A stretch of DNA of 64,000 nt from Patescibacteria group bacterium (GTDB lineage Bacteria; Patescibacteriota; Patescibacteriia; UBA2591; UBA6264): NCBI GenBank assembly GCA_016784145.1, contig JADHVF010000003.1, forward strand, positions 22,048 through 86,047. Reading direction: 5' to 3'. A program made the position numbers and the translations under genes. Below are positions 4,286 to 64,000 of the stretch, in pieces (within the stretch, counting starts at the first letter, position 1; each line of letters opens with the position of its first letter). The notes under the pieces were generated by a model. That model worked only from the letters and a program-made list of their open reading frames with translations. It did no database searches and was not told where the DNA came from.

Positions 4286-4334
4286 CCTTGTTTAAAATAA
4301 TAAGACACAAAACAACCTTTAATTAAACTTGCCA

Positions 4335-4523
4335 CCAAGTAGGCCCTACTTAGAGGCCTTTACCTCACTTAGAGGCCTTGCCCCTAAGTAGATATTGAGC
4401 ACGAATCTTACTGAGGGTTTTACTTAGAGGCCTTGCCCCTAAGTAGGGTAGAAATCAATAATCAGTAATCAATAATCAACAACCTCGCTGAGGGTTTTAC
4501 TTAGAGGCCTTGCCCCTAAGTAG
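4335..4523. repeat. cluster A of GC-rich palindromic repeat (core ACTTAGAGGCCTTGCCCCTAAGTAG) with degenerate copies and an ATCAATA heptad tract
   Basis: Exact cores at 4368-4391, 4422-4446 and 4499-4523. Partial copies at 4335-4359 and 4411-4420. Heptads at 4449-4481. Confidence 0.8.
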
Positions 4524-4546
4524 ATATTGAGCACAAATATCATGTA

Positions 4547-9810: not shown

Positions 9811-10067
9811 TTACCTCACTTAGAGGCCTTGCCCCTAAGTAGGGTACAAATCAATAATCAGTAATCAATAATCAACAACCTCACTGAGGGTTCTACTTAG
9901 AGTTTACTTAGAGGCCTTGCCCCTAAGTAGAGTATAAATCAATAATCAGTAATCAATAATCAACAACCTCACTTAGAGGCCTTGCCCCTAAGTAGAATAA
10001 TCAACAATCTCCCTTAGAGTTTTACTTAGAGGCCTTGCCCCTAAGTAGACTCACTTAGAGGCCTTGA
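9811..10067. repeat. cluster B of the GC-rich palindromic repeat
   Basis: Cores at 9818-9842, 9906-9930, 9971-9995, 10024-10048, truncated copy 10051-10067. Spacings 88/65/53. ATCAATA heptads interleaved. Confidence 0.8.
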
Positions 10068-14849: not shown

Positions 14850-14862
14850 GTTTAGAAATGAC

Positions 14863-14984
14863 TATTGATTAGTGATTATTGATTATTGATTATTGATTAT
14901 TAATTATTGATTAGTGATTATTGATTAGTGATTATTGATTATTGATTAGTGATTATTAATTAGTGATTATTGATTATTATTCTG
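14863..14984. repeat. TGATTAn heptad microsatellite (about 17 units)
   Basis: ttgattagtgattattgattattgatta... period 7, between mscS stop (14977) and terminator. Confidence 0.85.
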
Positions 14985-29287: not shown

Positions 29288-29854
29288 ATGATATATGCTA
29301 TTTTTGGAAAAATTTTAGCCAAGCAAACCAAGACAATAATACTTGAAGTAAATAATTTATTTTTTGAAATTTTTGTTACAAATTCTTTTATAAACAAAAC
29401 AAAAATAGACCAAGATATTAAATTGTTTACTTATTTAGCCGTAAAAGAAGAAGCATTTCAATTATATGGATTTGAAAGCGAAGAAGAGTTGAATTATTTT
29501 AAATTATTAAAAAAAATCTCTGGCATCGGACCCAAGTCAGCCATAAATATTTTATCTTTAGTTGGTATAAATAATTTGGAAAAAGCAATTTTAGAAAAAG
29601 ATTCTAACGTACTAACAAAAGTATCTGGAATTGGATCTAAAATTGCTGAAAAAATTATTTTAGAACTAAAAGGAAAAATCAAAGCAACAATTAAAACTTA
29701 TACATCTATTGATGATGAAACAACAATCGATGCACTAACAAGTCTAGGATATTCCATGCAAGAATCTAGGCAAGTAATAAAAAAAATTCCAGATAATATG
29801 ATAAATGCTGAAGATAGAGTTAAACAAGCATTAAAAATTTTATCTGGAAAATAA
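29288..29854 (+). CDS. ruvA: Holliday junction branch-migration protein RuvA
   Basis: OB N-domain, HhH motifs ISGIGPKSAINILS and VSGIGSKIAEKII. Confidence 0.8.
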   Translation: MIYAIFGKILAKQTKTIILEVNNLFFEIFVTNSFINKTKIDQDIKLFTYLAVKEEAFQLYGFESEEELNYFKLLKKISGIGPKSAINILSLVGINNLEKAILEKDSNVLTKVSGIGSKIAEKIILELKGKIKATIKTYTSIDDETTIDALTSLGYSMQESRQVIKKIPDNMINAEDRVKQALKILSGK

Positions 29855-29935
29855 ATAATTAATGATTAATGATTAGTGATTAGTGATTAGTGATTAATGA
29901 TTAATGATTAATAATTAATGATTAGTGATTAATGA
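29855..29935. repeat. TGATTAn heptad microsatellite filling the whole ruvA/rplU convergent spacer
   Basis: attaatgattaatgattagtgattagtgatta..., 11 to 12 units. Confidence 0.85.
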
Positions 29936-30325
29936 TTATTTCGTTTTCTTAACCGTGCTTTTAGCCGGTTTTTTCTTAACCGTGCTTTTAGCCGGTTTTT
30001 TTACTTGGGCAGAAGTAAATGACAAAATCTTGATTTTTGTCTGTAATTGTCTATGCCCTTGTTTTCTTTTATAACGATTTTTACTTTTGTATTTAATGAC
30101 AACAATCTTTGGAGCTTTTTGTTGCTCTAAAATTTCAGCCTTAACAACCATTTTAAGTAATGGTTTGCCTATTTCAATTTTTTTAGACAAATCAAAAAAC
30201 AACAAAACATTATCTAGCATTATTTTGTCACCTGGTTGGCCATCAATTTTCTCTATATTTAATAAATCTCCCTTTTTTACAAGATATTGTTTTCCTCCTG
30301 TTTTTAATACTACAAATTTTTCCAT
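29936..30325 (-). CDS. rplU: 50S ribosomal protein L21 with lysine-rich C-terminal extension
   Basis: MEKFVVLKTGGKQYLVKKGD matches the L21 start. C-terminal KKPAKSTVKK duplicated (27-bp DNA tandem duplication 29947-30000). Confidence 0.8.
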   Translation of the reverse strand: MEKFVVLKTGGKQYLVKKGDLLNIEKIDGQPGDKIMLDNVLLFFDLSKKIEIGKPLLKMVVKAEILEQQKAPKIVVIKYKSKNRYKRKQGHRQLQTKIKILSFTSAQVKKPAKSTVKKKPAKSTVKKTK

Positions 30326-39518: not shown

Positions 39519-39900
39519 TTAATTTTCTACTTAGGTCTACTTAGGGGCAAGGCCTCTAAGTAAAACTCTCAGTGAGGTAGTTGATTATTGATTATTGATT
39601 ACTAATTACTGATTATTGATTACTGATTATTGATTTCTATTCTACTTAGGGGCAAGGCCTCTAAGTAAAGACATAAGTCAAGAAAAGCAAGTATTAACAC
39701 CAAAACCTCATCCTGTTCCTCGACCAAAACCTGACTTAGGGGCAAGGCCTCTAAGTGAGGTAGTTGATTATTGATTATTGATTATTGATTTGTACTCTAC
39801 TTAGGGGCAAGACCTCTAAGTGAGGTAGTTGATTATTGATTACTGATTATTGATTACTACTCTACTTAGGGGCAAGACCTCTAAGTGAGAGTAAGTGAGG
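39519..39900. repeat. cluster C of the GC-rich palindromic repeat (opposite orientation: CTACTTAGGGGCAAGGCCTCTAAGT) with TGATTAn heptads
   Basis: Cores at 39537-39561, 39642-39666, 39735-39758, 39797-39821, 39862-39886. Confidence 0.8.
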
Positions 39901-39966
39901 TAATTCAGGGAATCAATCCTCTTGTCAACTCTTGTCAGGGCCTAATACTAACATTCTATATCAGTG

Positions 39967-47442: not shown

Positions 47443-47498
47443 AAATAATTAATAAATGATTATTAATTATTGATTAGTGATTAGCAATTATTGATTAA
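47443..47498. repeat. TGATTAn heptad tract between trxB stop and its terminator
   Basis: aataattaataaatgattattaattattgattagtgattagcaattattgatta. Confidence 0.7.
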
Positions 47499-60112: not shown

Positions 60113-60184
60113 GCCGAGGTAGCTCAGTGGTAGAGCAGTAGACTGAAAATCTACGTGTCGGCAGTCCGATTCTGCCCCTCGGCA
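60113..60184 (+). tRNA. tRNA-Phe (GAA)
   Basis: GCCGAGGTAGCTCAGTGGTAGAGC, anticodon loop CTGAAAA. T-loop reads TCCGATT (C at position 55). Confidence 0.7.
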
Positions 60185-60238: not shown

Positions 60239-60634
60239 TTAATCACTTTTTATAAATTTTTCAGCAGACATTAGCAAAGAATCGATTTGATTACTGTTGG
60301 TCGGGGAATAACCAAGCATTTCCATTTTTAATAAAACAAACTTTATGCTCACAACGCACGATTCAATATCAGTTCTTGTTAAAAAAGAATCATGTTTTGG
60401 CAAAAAATAATCATTTATTTCTTTGCTCTCAATTTCTTCTTCCCAGCCCAATGTTTTTTGGTGACTAGCAACAAGAATAGCCAGGTCATTTAATGAAGTA
60501 TTCAAATCTGTTACCAGAGTATCTATGGTTAATGTATCTATCATTATTTCTTCTACTGAAACTGTCTGCGAATAAATGCCCGTGAAACAGCCAACAACTA
60601 TTATGCTTACTAAAAACATTCTTAGTGCTCTCAT
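60239..60634 (-). CDS. hypothetical secreted protein (131 aa)
   Basis: Signal peptide MRALRMFLVSIIVVGCFTG. SD AAAGGAGAAC. Putative promoter TTGACA-16-TATATT on minus at about 60700-60732. Confidence 0.4.
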   Translation of the reverse strand: MRALRMFLVSIIVVGCFTGIYSQTVSVEEIMIDTLTIDTLVTDLNTSLNDLAILVASHQKTLGWEEEIESKEINDYFLPKHDSFLTRTDIESCVVSIKFVLLKMEMLGYSPTNSNQIDSLLMSAEKFIKSD

Positions 60635-60751
60635 TTTTTTTGTTCTCCTTTGATTATTAATGTACTTAACTACATTATGTATGCAGCCATTGTATTATTA
60701 ACCAATATAGCATATTTTAAGGTTTTGTCAATCGCAAACTGCCTAAATAAA

Positions 60752-61063
60752 AAATGTGCAATATCAAAGATCGCACACTCACAAGTAGTTACTTAGAGGC
60801 CTTGCCCCTAAGTAGATACACTTAGAGATATTACTTAGAGGCCTTGCCCCTAAGTAGATATTGAGCACGAATCAATAATCAATAATCAGTAATCATTCAC
60901 TTAGAGATATTACTTAGAGGCCTTGCCCCTAAGTAGAGTCACTTAGAGATATTACTTAGAGGCCTTGCCCCTAAGTAGAGTCACTTAGAGATATTACTTA
61001 GAGGCCTTGCCCCTAAGTAGATATTGAGCACAAAAAAGTGTGCAATATCAAAGGTTGCACACT
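60752..61063. repeat. cluster D: five palindromic-repeat cores in a 42-bp tandem unit, bounded by two copies of a second hairpin element (AGTGTGCAA-n9-TTGCACACT)
   Basis: Cores 60791-60815, 60833-60857, 60922-60946, 60954-60978, 60996-61020. Bounding hairpins 60752-60778 and 61037-61063. Confidence 0.8.
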
Positions 61064-61074
61064 AGAAGAAAAAA

Positions 61075-61146
61075 TGGACGGCATAGGACTCGAACCTACA
61101 ACCTCCGCGATGTAAACGCGATGCTCTACCATTGAGCTAGCCGTCC
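61075..61146 (-). tRNA. tRNA-Val (TAC)
   Basis: Reverse complement GGACGGCTAGCTCAATGGTAGAGC, anticodon loop TTTACAT. Confidence 0.8.
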
Positions 61147-63307: not shown

Positions 63308-64000
63308 TTATTTTTTTAAAGTAAGTAAAAAATTATTTAATTTTTTTGGCAAATTACTATTTATAATATTATACTTATTATTTAAATCATAAAACCCCAA
63401 ACAATAAGCATGTAAAAATATTCTATCTATGTCCGTGCTTAAATTTTTAAATTTATATTTTTTGTCCCCAACTATTGGAAACCCGAACGCCTTGAGATGA
63501 ACTCTTATTTGGTTTGTTCTGCCTGTTACTGGCTCTACTTTTAACAAACTATACTTTGATGGAAAATTAAACTCTGTCACTACTTCATATTTTGTTAAAG
63601 CTGATTTTTTGAATTTAATTTTTTTATCATATTTAACAGACACAATCTTGCCTTTTGGATTTCTCCCAATTTCAAAATCAATTTCGCCTTGTTTGACAGG
63701 CAAATGTCCATAAACAAGCGCATAATAATATTTAGTTATTCTTTTCTGCTTAAATTGCTCTATAAAATAATCATATACTGTTTGTGAAAGAGCAAGCATA
63801 AGCACTCCTGAAACATCTCTATCAAGTCGATGAATAATTCCATTTCTACCTACTTGTCCAATGTTTTTAACTTGCGGATAATTATCCAAAAGCCAACTAA
63901 ATAATGTTGGTTGTGTTTGAATATTTTTTATTGGGTGCATTAAAATCCCTGCAGGCTTGGCTACTACCAACAAATCATCTCGTTCATACAATATCTTAAT
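63308..64000 (-). CDS. RluA-family pseudouridine synthase, N-terminus probably beyond window end
   Basis: LLVVAKPAGILMHP and catalytic HRLDRDVSGVLMLA. Frame stays open to nt 64000 upstream of the TTG at 63991. Confidence 0.7.
   Translation of the reverse strand: MKILYERDDLLVVAKPAGILMHPIKNIQTQPTLFSWLLDNYPQVKNIGQVGRNGIIHRLDRDVSGVLMLALSQTVYDYFIEQFKQKRITKYYYALVYGHLPVKQGEIDFEIGRNPKGKIVSVKYDKKIKFKKSALTKYEVVTEFNFPSKYSLLKVEPVTGRTNQIRVHLKAFGFPIVGDKKYKFKNLSTDIDRIFLHAYCLGFYDLNNKYNIINSNLPKKLNNFLLTLKK

What the first reader, a model, noticed from the sequence alone, without database searches (positions are those of the whole stretch)
60752..61063. Cluster D is a bounded composite element: two copies of a second palindrome flank a 42-bp tandem array
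AATGTGCAATATCAAAGATCGCACACT (60752-60778) and AGTGTGCAATATCAAAGGTTGCACACT (61037-61063) are direct repeats of each other. Each is internally palindromic, with a perfect 9-bp stem AGTGTGCAA/TTGCACACT in the right copy. They bracket about 255 bp containing five hairpin cores organised as a 42-bp tandem unit (AGTCACTTAGAGATATTACTTAGAGGCCTTGCCCCTAAGTAG). A defined boundary structure suggests a discrete inserted element or a protein-bound site pair. It lies between a secreted-protein gene promoter region and tRNA-Val.
Basis: seen in the sequence. Interest (0 to 1): 0.65.

Follow-up and report, generated by a model that had tools for sequence, protein, structure and literature searches.

The report
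Duplicated tRNA terminator flanking a hairpin-repeat array
The two "boundary" palindromes are most likely two copies of the ordinary transcription terminator that follows tRNA-Val, sitting either side of one copy of a species-specific hairpin-repeat array of an uncultured Patescibacteria bacterium; they are not the ends of a mobile element.

Summary
A 31-nt direct repeat (60749-60779 and 61033-61063, 28/31 identical) brackets 253 bp. That stretch holds five identical 23-nt hairpin cores, with 42-bp spacing in two blocks of 2 and 3.

- Read on the minus strand, the strand of both flanking genes, each palindrome is a hairpin (-9 to -10 kcal/mol) followed at once by a T-run. This is the form of a Rho-independent terminator.
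- The right copy lies 11 nt after tRNA-Val. The left copy lies 21 nt before the strongest promoter-like site of the 131-aa lipoprotein-like gene.
- The duplication includes the T-run.
- The three substitutions between the copies keep the minus-strand RNA hairpin but weaken the plus-strand one.

The hairpin-core array belongs to a mosaic, REP/BIME- or BOX-like family with four intergenic clusters in the window. Cluster A is colinear with this one yet has no palindromes, and no cluster other than D has flanking duplications. No third copy of the palindrome exists in about 78 kb, and none was found in the public collections scanned.

So the palindromes are duplicated host sequence, not element termini. 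How the duplication arose is unresolved. No close relative exists to supply an empty site. Interest is low to moderate.

The parts
61033..61063 (-). Right copy of the 31-nt repeat (T1). On the minus strand the hairpin AGUGUGCAA-N9-UUGCACACU (61063->61037) is followed by UUUUUUG (61036->61030). It is the putative Rho-independent terminator of tRNA-Val.
   Evidence: The fold is -10.3 to -10.8 kcal/mol. The minus-strand T-tail score of -4.92 falls in the top ~1.2% of window positions, against -1.50 on the plus strand. The hairpin starts 11 nt after the tRNA-Val 3' end.
60749..60779 (-). Left copy of the 31-nt repeat (T2). On the minus strand the hairpin spans 60779->60753, with two G-U pairs, followed by UUUUAUUU. 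It is a duplicated terminator lying just upstream of the next promoter.
   Evidence: The terminator scan found it as an 11-pair stem with a 7-nt loop and a T tail. It folds at -9.2 to -10.9 kcal/mol on the minus strand but only -5.0 on the plus strand. Its tail score is -4.87. It is 28/31 identical to T1.
60780..61032 (+). A 253-bp mosaic hairpin-repeat array (cluster D). It has five 23-nt cores at 60791-60813, 60833-60855, 60912-60934, 60954-60976 and 60996-61018. The 19-nt linkers contain a half-core (CACTTAGAG). GATATTGAGCAC modules lie at 60857-60868 and 61020-61031.
   Evidence: No Rfam family matches it. No promoter-like site lies inside it. No gene is called there in the public assemblies.
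60870..60895 (+). An AATCA(A/G)T heptamer run that splits the array into two blocks.
   Evidence: TRF reports period 7, 3.7 copies. The same heptamer family lies inside clusters A, B and C and also forms stand-alone arrays.
61075..61146 (-). tRNA-Val (anticodon tac), the gene whose transcript T1 would end.
   Evidence: ARAGORN. Rfam tRNA model, 69.5 bits.
60704..60731 (-). Promoter-like site TTGACA-16-(TG)TATATT for the 131-aa gene, 21 nt downstream of T2 on the minus strand.
   Evidence: It matches 11 of 12 positions and has an extended -10 TG. It is the second-best site in 44-64 kb.
60239..60634 (-). A 131-aa ORF with a signal-peptide/lipobox-like N-terminus (MRALRMFLVSIIVVGC...). It is called as a gene in the public assemblies and has no Pfam hit.
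4320..4537 (+). Cluster A, an array colinear with D (3 full cores plus a degenerate one, same GATATTGAGCAC modules) without any flanking palindrome.
9812..10066 (+). Cluster B, 4 cores with heptamer-rich linkers between tRNA-Gly and tRNA-Tyr. It has no flanking duplication.
39526..39905 (-). Cluster C, 5 cores (two carry one C->T change) upstream of tRNA-Ser. It has no flanking duplication.

Best explanation
The two palindromes are two diverged copies of one Rho-independent terminator, read on the minus strand, which both flanking genes use. T1 (61063->61031) ends the tRNA-Val transcript. T2 (60779->60744) lies 253 bp further on. It would stop any read-through, or any transcript arising in the array, just before the promoter of the 131-aa lipoprotein-like gene.

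The 253 bp between them is one copy of a species-specific, non-coding mosaic repeat. It consists of 23-nt GC-rich imperfect hairpin cores in direct orientation, modular linkers and AATCAAT heptamers. It is of the REP/BIME or BOX kind and grows locally by tandem duplication of a 42-bp unit.

The palindromes are therefore host (target) sequence duplicated around the array, not termini of the element.

Shown: the repeat, its terminator anatomy and strand asymmetry, its position relative to the tRNA and the promoter-like site, its uniqueness in about 78 kb, and the existence of a colinear array without it.

Inferred: that the hairpins actually terminate transcription. Also inferred is how the duplication arose. 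Either the array landed between the two units of a pre-existing tandem double terminator, or the insertion or repair event duplicated the whole hairpin plus T-run.
For: Terminator anatomy:
- On the minus strand both copies fold at -9.2 to -10.9 kcal/mol and are followed at once by T-runs. Their tail scores are -4.87 and -4.92, in the top ~1.2% of window positions. On the plus strand the tails score -1.5 to -1.6, and the left copy folds at only -5.0.
- The generic terminator scan picks up the left copy on the minus strand. The right copy is missed only because its 9-nt loop exceeds that scan's 8-nt limit.
- The duplication covers the A/T-run as well as the hairpin: 31 nt, 28/31 identical.
- All three differences are transitions that keep or extend minus-strand RNA pairing (G-C to G-U, A-U to G-U, and a new U-A pair).

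Position:
- T1 begins 11 nt after tRNA-Val. T2 ends 21 nt before a TTGACA-16-TGnTATATT site.
- Hairpin plus T-run sites are enriched in this genome region: 23 against 8.7 +/- 3.1 in shuffles. Other tRNAs here are followed by such hairpins.

Relation to the array family:
- The palindrome is found only at cluster D.
- Clusters A to C have no flanking duplication: score 23.5 at D against 6.0-8.5 elsewhere, with null ~7 +/- 1.1.
- Cluster A is colinear with D.
- The array cores have no T tail on either strand.
Against: - No transcript data exist, so termination is inferred from sequence only.
- The strand-specific substitution pattern rests on three changes. Two stem transitions would favour one strand by chance about a quarter of the time.
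- A 31-nt duplication flanking an insert exactly is also what a long target-site duplication or an att-core duplication would look like.
- Only about 78 kb of a genome probably near 1 Mb could be examined, so further copies of the palindrome elsewhere cannot be excluded.
- The right copy is also a perfect DNA palindrome and could bind a dimeric protein.
Confidence: 0.65

Rival explanations
1. One reading: the palindromes are the terminal structures of a discrete mobile composite element, a MITE with an internal minisatellite like BrickBuilt of Porphyromonas gingivalis. The whole unit 60749-61063 is what moves.
For: - The repeats abut the array exactly, with 253 bp between them.
- The array is a recurring composite with conserved end modules.
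- MITEs carrying internal minisatellites and leader/tail ends are documented (PMC4596501).
Against: - The ends are direct, not inverted.
- The colinear cluster A and clusters B and C lack them.
- There is no third copy in about 78 kb or in the collections scanned.
- The repeats contain a T-run and sit where the tRNA-Val terminator should be.
- The two copies are 10% diverged, whereas 15 of the 17 cores are identical.
Confidence: 0.08
2. The 31-nt repeat is a long target-site duplication or an att-core duplication. The array, a non-autonomous element, inserted into the single tRNA-Val terminator by a mechanism that duplicates the whole hairpin. One route is staggered cleavage at the base of an extruded hairpin. 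Another is site-specific recombination next to a tRNA gene.
For: - The flanking duplication is exact and found only at the ends of the insert.
- The site is adjacent to a tRNA gene.
- Arrays A and D are colinear, as if a whole array can be copied to a new site.
Against: - Clusters A, B and C show no duplication at their ends, so this is not a general signature of the family.
- No transposase, integrase or Y1-transposase Pfam domain appears in the gene calls across the window.
- The repeat does not overlap the tRNA, unlike typical att cores.
- The DR copies are far more diverged than the cores, so the array would need later homogenisation.
- This scenario is compatible with the best explanation as the origin of the duplication. 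It differs only in mechanism.
Confidence: 0.15
3. The palindromes are a pair of operator sites for a dimeric DNA-binding protein. The left site would regulate the 131-aa gene promoter and could loop to the right site across the array.
For: - The right copy is a perfect 9+9 inverted repeat on DNA.
- The left copy is centred about 35-70 bp upstream of the promoter-like site.
Against: - The half-site centres are 18 bp apart, which is unusual for helix-turn-helix dimers. This point rests on general knowledge, not on a test here.
- The left copy has lost DNA symmetry in a way that preserves only the minus-strand RNA pairing.
- The conserved T-run is unexplained by this reading.
- No other copy of the motif lies near any other promoter in about 78 kb.
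Confidence: 0.07

Closest known systems
Rho-independent (intrinsic) terminators, including tandem double terminators after stable-RNA genes
   Same: Each palindrome has a 9-11 bp stem and a 7-9 nt loop, with a T-run directly 3' on the strand of the upstream gene. T1 lies 11 nt after a tRNA gene.
   Different: The two copies are separated by a 253-bp repeat array instead of being adjacent. Function has not been tested.
REP/BIME elements of enterobacteria and pseudomonads (PMC3333891, PMC2817692)
   Same: The array cores are short GC-rich imperfect palindromes with a conserved stem mismatch. They are strictly intergenic and clustered into mosaics with a small set of linkers. Unit number may vary between assemblies. 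A GTAG lies next to the hairpin foot.
   Different: - All cores in a cluster are in direct orientation, whereas BIMEs pair REP with iREP in inverse orientation.
- The core is 23 nt rather than 30-40 nt.
- The GTAG is 3' of, and overlapping, the foot rather than 5' of it.
- No RAYT gene was seen in the window.
- AATCAAT heptamer runs are part of the mosaic.
BOX elements of Streptococcus pneumoniae (boxA-(boxB)n-boxC) and SPRITE (PMC3049150)
   Same: Both are modular composites with conserved end modules around a variable number of tandem internal units (42 bp here, about 45 bp for boxB from memory). Both are intergenic, species-specific and structure-forming. SPRITE shows that terminator-like hairpins can themselves be repeats.
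   Different: There is no sequence similarity. The terminator-like palindromes here have two local copies only, not a dispersed family like SPRITE.
BrickBuilt MITE with internal minisatellite, Porphyromonas gingivalis (PMC4596501)
   Different: BrickBuilt's ends are small inverted repeats that belong to every copy. Here the flanking repeats are direct, present at one of four arrays, and look like host terminators.
CRISPR arrays
   Same: Both have short palindromic direct repeats of about 23-25 nt at semi-regular spacing.
   Different: The 'spacers' are not unique. The same 19-nt linker occurs three times in D, and the same heptamer-rich linkers recur in different clusters. Lengths range from 19 to 82 nt. 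No Cas domain appears in the window's gene calls.
Cyanobacterial STRR heptamer repeats (recalled from memory, not checked in a paper here)
   Same: Both involve tandem heptanucleotide repeats filling intergenic regions and mixed with other small dispersed repeats.
   Different: The unit sequence and the phylum differ. This is a resemblance only.

Membership tests
Rho-independent terminator (the two palindromes) | Stable RNA hairpin (stem about 5-14 bp, short loop) on the transcribed strand | tested here: met
   On the minus strand the copies fold at -9.2 and -10.3 kcal/mol as bare hairpins, and -10.8 and -10.9 with flanks. Stems are 9-11 bp and loops 7-9 nt.
Rho-independent terminator (the two palindromes) | U/T-rich tract immediately 3' of the hairpin, on that strand only | tested here: met
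   Tail scores are -4.92 and -4.87 on the minus strand, in the top ~1.2% of the background. On the plus strand they are -1.50 and -1.56.
Rho-independent terminator (the two palindromes) | Located just downstream of a gene in the same orientation | tested here: met
   T1 starts 11 nt after tRNA-Val(-). T2 follows the array and precedes the next promoter-like site by 21 nt.
Rho-independent terminator (the two palindromes) | Transcripts actually end there | not testable with these tools
   No transcriptome data are available for this uncultured organism.
   The palindrome is absent from clusters A, B and C and from the rest of the window at up to 6 mismatches in 25. The colinear cluster A lacks it.
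   The two copies are direct repeats.
REP/BIME (the hairpin-core array) | Short imperfect palindrome, extragenic, many copies per genome | tested here: inconclusive
   The palindrome carries a conserved A-C mismatch, and 17 copies lie in 4 intergenic clusters in 64 kb. A genome-wide count is impossible, because the genome is absent from the collections scanned.
REP/BIME (the hairpin-core array) | Clusters made of REPs in alternating (inverse) orientation | tested here: not met
   Within every cluster all cores are on one strand. The BIME definition is from PMC3333891.
REP/BIME (the hairpin-core array) | Conserved GTAG 5' to the foot of the hairpin | tested here: not met
   GTAG is present in 16 of 17 copies but lies 3' of the hairpin and overlaps its foot (...CTAAGTAG). 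The feature is as defined in PMC3333891.
REP/BIME (the hairpin-core array) | Cognate RAYT (Y1 transposase) gene in the genome | not testable with these tools
   None appears among the Pfam-annotated gene calls covering the window and its flanks.
CRISPR array | Unique spacers of uniform length between identical repeats, with cas genes or a leader nearby | tested here: not met
   Linkers are repeated within and between clusters and range from 19 to 82 nt. There are no Cas domains in the window's gene calls.

The most novel reading that the evidence does not exclude
The array is a non-autonomous mobile element of Patescibacteria that targets terminator hairpins and duplicates the entire hairpin plus T-run on insertion, giving a 31-bp target duplication. 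This would imply cleavage at the base of an extruded hairpin or cruciform, an insertion mechanism not described for REP, BIME, BOX or MITE elements. A side effect would be that each insertion arrives already insulated by terminators on both sides.
Probability: 0.1. Interest if true: 0.6.

Novelty: new member of a known kind. Interest (0 to 1): 0.3.

Why it matters
The immediate value is in annotation. The pair of palindromes should be recorded as terminator copies, not as the ends of a mobile element or as a regulatory site pair.

There is a modest wider point. This reduced, 30% GC Patescibacteria genome carries a perfectly conserved, species-specific hairpin-repeat family at about one cluster per 16 kb, mixed with heptamer microsatellites. 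A relative at 58% protein identity carries a different GC-rich hairpin family in comparable intergenic sites. My two literature searches found no paper describing REP-like repeats in this phylum.

If the terminator duplication proved to be an insertion signature, it would point to a hairpin-targeting mobilisation mechanism. The present data do not favour that.

Tried and rejected
- **Empty-site comparison.** Every public contig encoding the flanking proteins belongs to one population that is 99.9-100% identical. The D locus is identical in all of them. The next relatives are at 58% amino-acid identity or less and are rearranged. The test could not be done.
- **Searches of public collections.** The exact core gave 0 hits in genome contigs and 0 in metagenome contigs. 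A degenerate core gave 0 in viral contigs. In genome contigs it hit only unrelated perfect palindromes, seven in one Clostridia MAG and one in a Pseudomonadales MAG. The palindrome gave 0 in metagenome contigs.
- **Walking along the 92-kb contig.** Two look-ups failed because the ORF starts did not match the called genes.
- **Palindrome derived from the array's GATATTGAGCAC module.** Its reverse complement GTGCTCAATATC resembles GTGCAATATC. The similarity is not significant (p about 0.07-0.1), so the idea was dropped.
- **An apparent 161-bp indel near cluster A between assemblies.** It is a scaffold gap of Ns, not a polymorphism.
- **Rfam.** Nothing matches the array or the palindromes.
- **CRISPR reading.** Rejected because the linkers are repeated.
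- **tRNA association of the arrays.** Three of the four are next to a tRNA gene. With 13 tRNA genes in 64 kb, my rough estimate puts the chance of this near 0.09, which is not convincing.
- **Helical phasing of core spacings.** The spacings (42 to 105 bp) show no consistent phase.

Full report
**What is in the sequence.**
- The right palindrome AGTGTGCAATATCAAAGGTTGCACACT is at 61037-61063.
- The left palindrome AATGTGCAATATCAAAGATCGCACACT is at 60753-60779, one base to the right of the stated coordinates.
- The repeat finder extends the similarity to 31 nt (60749-60779 and 61033-61063, 28/31 identical) by adding a run of five A's on the + strand.
- Exactly 253 bp separate the two copies.
- This stretch holds five identical copies of the 23-nt imperfect hairpin ACTTAGAGGCCTTGCCCCTAAGT. 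TRF reports a 42-bp period.
- The core spacing is 42, 79, 42, 42. There are therefore two blocks of 2 and 3 units, each ending in AGATATTGAGCAC, joined by AATCAAT heptamers.
- None of these motifs appeared in the shuffled-sequence controls.

**The palindromes read as terminators on the minus strand.** Both flanking genes are on the minus strand: tRNA-Val(tac) at 61146->61075 and a 131-aa signal-peptide/lipobox ORF at 60634->60239.
- On that strand the right copy is AGUGUGCAA-N9-UUGCACACU followed by UUUUUUG. It starts 11 nt after the tRNA.
- The left copy is AGUGUGCGAU-N7-AUUGCACAUU followed by UUUUAUUU.
- The bare hairpins fold at -10.3 and -9.2 kcal/mol.
- The T-tail scores (Kingsford-type weighting, my own script) are -4.92 and -4.87, in the top ~1.2% of positions in this AT-rich window.
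- On the plus strand the tails score only about -1.5, and the left copy folds at -5.0 kcal/mol.
- The generic terminator scan reports the left copy on the minus strand.
- The duplicated unit includes the T-run. A terminator copy explains that; a DNA-binding palindrome or an element terminus does not.
- The three differences between the copies are all transitions. Each keeps or extends minus-strand RNA pairing: G-C to G-U, A-U to G-U, and a new U-A pair. With only three changes this is suggestive, not proof.
- Immediately after the left copy, 21 nt downstream on the minus strand, lies TTGACA-16-TGnTATATT. It is the second-best promoter-like site in 44-64 kb.
- Hairpin plus T-run sites are enriched in this part of the genome: 23 against 8.7 +/- 3.1 in shuffles. 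Neighbouring tRNA genes are followed by comparable hairpins.
- The minus-strand order is therefore: 237-aa oxidoreductase gene, tRNA-Val, T1, array, T2, promoter, 131-aa gene.

**The array belongs to a dispersed mosaic family; the palindromes do not.**
- The same 23-nt core occurs 17 times in four intergenic clusters: A 4367-4521 (+), B 9818-10046 (+), C 39539-39886 (-) and D. Fifteen copies are identical. The other two share one C->T change.
- Within each cluster all cores point the same way.
- The linkers come from a small set of modules: a heptamer-rich 42-nt linker, CCTCACTGAGGGTTTT-type linkers, AGATATTGAGCAC(G/A), and in D a 19-nt linker containing a half-core.
- Cluster A aligns colinearly with cluster D. 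Both have the internal GATATTGAGCACGAATC and the terminal GATATTGAGCACAAA modules.
- Cluster A nevertheless has no palindrome at either end.
- A flank-against-flank alignment finds a direct repeat only at D: score 23.5, against 6.0-8.5 for A to C and a null of about 7 +/- 1.1.
- The palindrome has no third copy in the window even with 6 mismatches in 25. It is also absent from the extra 7.9 kb to the right and 6 kb to the left that could be recovered.
- It is not significantly similar to any array module.
- The cores themselves carry no T-tail on either strand and are not terminators.
- No promoter-like site, called gene or Rfam family lies in the array.

**Origin of the window and comparative evidence.**
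- The flanking proteins identify the source as an uncultured "Patescibacteria group bacterium". The window has about 30% GC.
- Every public contig that encodes window proteins is 99.9-100% identical to the window. The D locus is base-for-base identical in three ENA assemblies.
- Short-read assemblies simply break inside the array.
- The nearest other organisms have 58% identity or less in the 237-aa protein.
- In one of them the gene is followed by tRNA-Val and then an intron-containing tRNA-Phe. It has no array and no palindrome, and it carries its own unrelated GC-rich hairpin repeats.
- Exact and degenerate searches for the core and the palindrome found nothing relevant in genome, metagenome or viral collections.
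- No transposase, integrase, Y1-transposase or Cas domain appears in the gene calls that cover the window.

**Interpretation.** The best-supported reading is that the bounding palindromes are host sequence: the intrinsic terminator of tRNA-Val, present in two copies either side of one array of a REP/BIME- or BOX-like repeat family.

Functionally, T1 would end the tRNA transcript. T2 would shield the downstream promoter from read-through across the array.

How the second copy arose is not resolved. The array may have inserted between two units of a tandem double terminator. Alternatively, the event that introduced the array may have duplicated the hairpin plus T-run. The two terminator copies differ at 10% of positions while the cores are nearly identical across loci. 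Either the duplication is older than the last homogenisation or spread of the cores, or the cores are under much stronger sequence-specific constraint.

The perfect conservation of loop, stem mismatch and adjacent GTAG, with no compensatory variation, fits recognition by a sequence-specific protein or very recent amplification better than a purely structural RNA role. That is inference.

**Comparison with known systems.**
- The palindromes meet every sequence-level criterion of Rho-independent terminators. Only the functional test is missing.
- The array resembles BIMEs in being a mosaic of short imperfect palindromes with a conserved mismatch. It fails two defining features taken from PMC3333891: inverse orientation of paired REPs, and GTAG 5' of the foot.
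- In architecture it is closer to pneumococcal BOX elements, which have end modules around a variable number of tandem units (PMC3049150).
There the ends are inverted and belong to every copy, which is not the case here.
- A CRISPR reading fails because the linkers are repeated.

**Verdict.** The array is a new member of a known kind, namely interspersed hairpin-repeat mosaics, together with an ordinary terminator that happens to be duplicated. Interest is low to moderate at 0.3. The residual novel possibility, a hairpin-targeting insertion that makes a 31-bp target duplication, is put at about 10%.

Noticed in passing
window 14859-14978, 29854-29938, 47444-47497 (also L008 5567-5650): Stand-alone tandem arrays of the AATCAAT/TGATTAT heptamer family, up to 17 copies, fill several intergenic regions without any hairpin core. 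The same heptamers form the linkers inside clusters A to D. The 92-kb ENA contig NODE_1394 appears to end at the 29854 array.
   Followed up: partly
L023 11700-12340 (= window cluster B, 9812-10066): In assembly ERZ24794647 cluster B is scaffolded across a run of Ns, with 8 cores instead of 4 and a variant linker (CCTCACTGAGAGTTCT). This suggests unit-number heterogeneity in the population, or an assembly ambiguity.
   Followed up: partly
L016 2262-2577: In the nearest relative (58% aa identity) tRNA-Val is followed directly by a tRNA-Phe gene interrupted by a group I intron (Rfam RF00028, 93 bits). The window's tRNA-Phe (60113-60184) is intron-less and on the opposite strand to tRNA-Val.
   Followed up: yes
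L016 2622-2672 and 3900-4137: The relative has its own, unrelated GC-rich hairpin repeat (GACCCCCGACCTCCAAnnGGAGGTCGGGGGTC) with 27-bp tandem units in intergenic regions. One copy lies just downstream of its tRNA-Val/tRNA-Phe pair. Species-specific hairpin repeats may therefore be common in this lineage.
   Followed up: partly
window 29944-30001: A perfect 27-bp tandem duplication (2.1 copies) lies inside the 3' end of the ribosomal protein L21 ORF (29936-30325, minus strand). It appears to repeat a lysine-rich C-terminal nonapeptide.
   Followed up: no
window 60791-61018 and all other cores: The core's single stem mismatch is A-C on the + strand but G-U on the complementary strand (-9.1 against -13.0 kcal/mol). 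The C->T variant in cluster C has the opposite strand preference. No consistent transcribed-strand orientation of the cores relative to neighbouring genes was seen.
   Followed up: partly
L001 2517-3263 (beyond the right end of the window): A LAGLIDADG_2 homing-endonuclease-like ORF lies about 3-4 kb past window position 64000, among housekeeping genes. It may mark an intron in a nearby RNA gene.
   Followed up: no
window 39919-39937: A tandem 10-bp duplication TTGACAAGAG x2 (minus strand) sits at the upstream edge of cluster C and creates two overlapping TTGACA hexamers.
   Followed up: no
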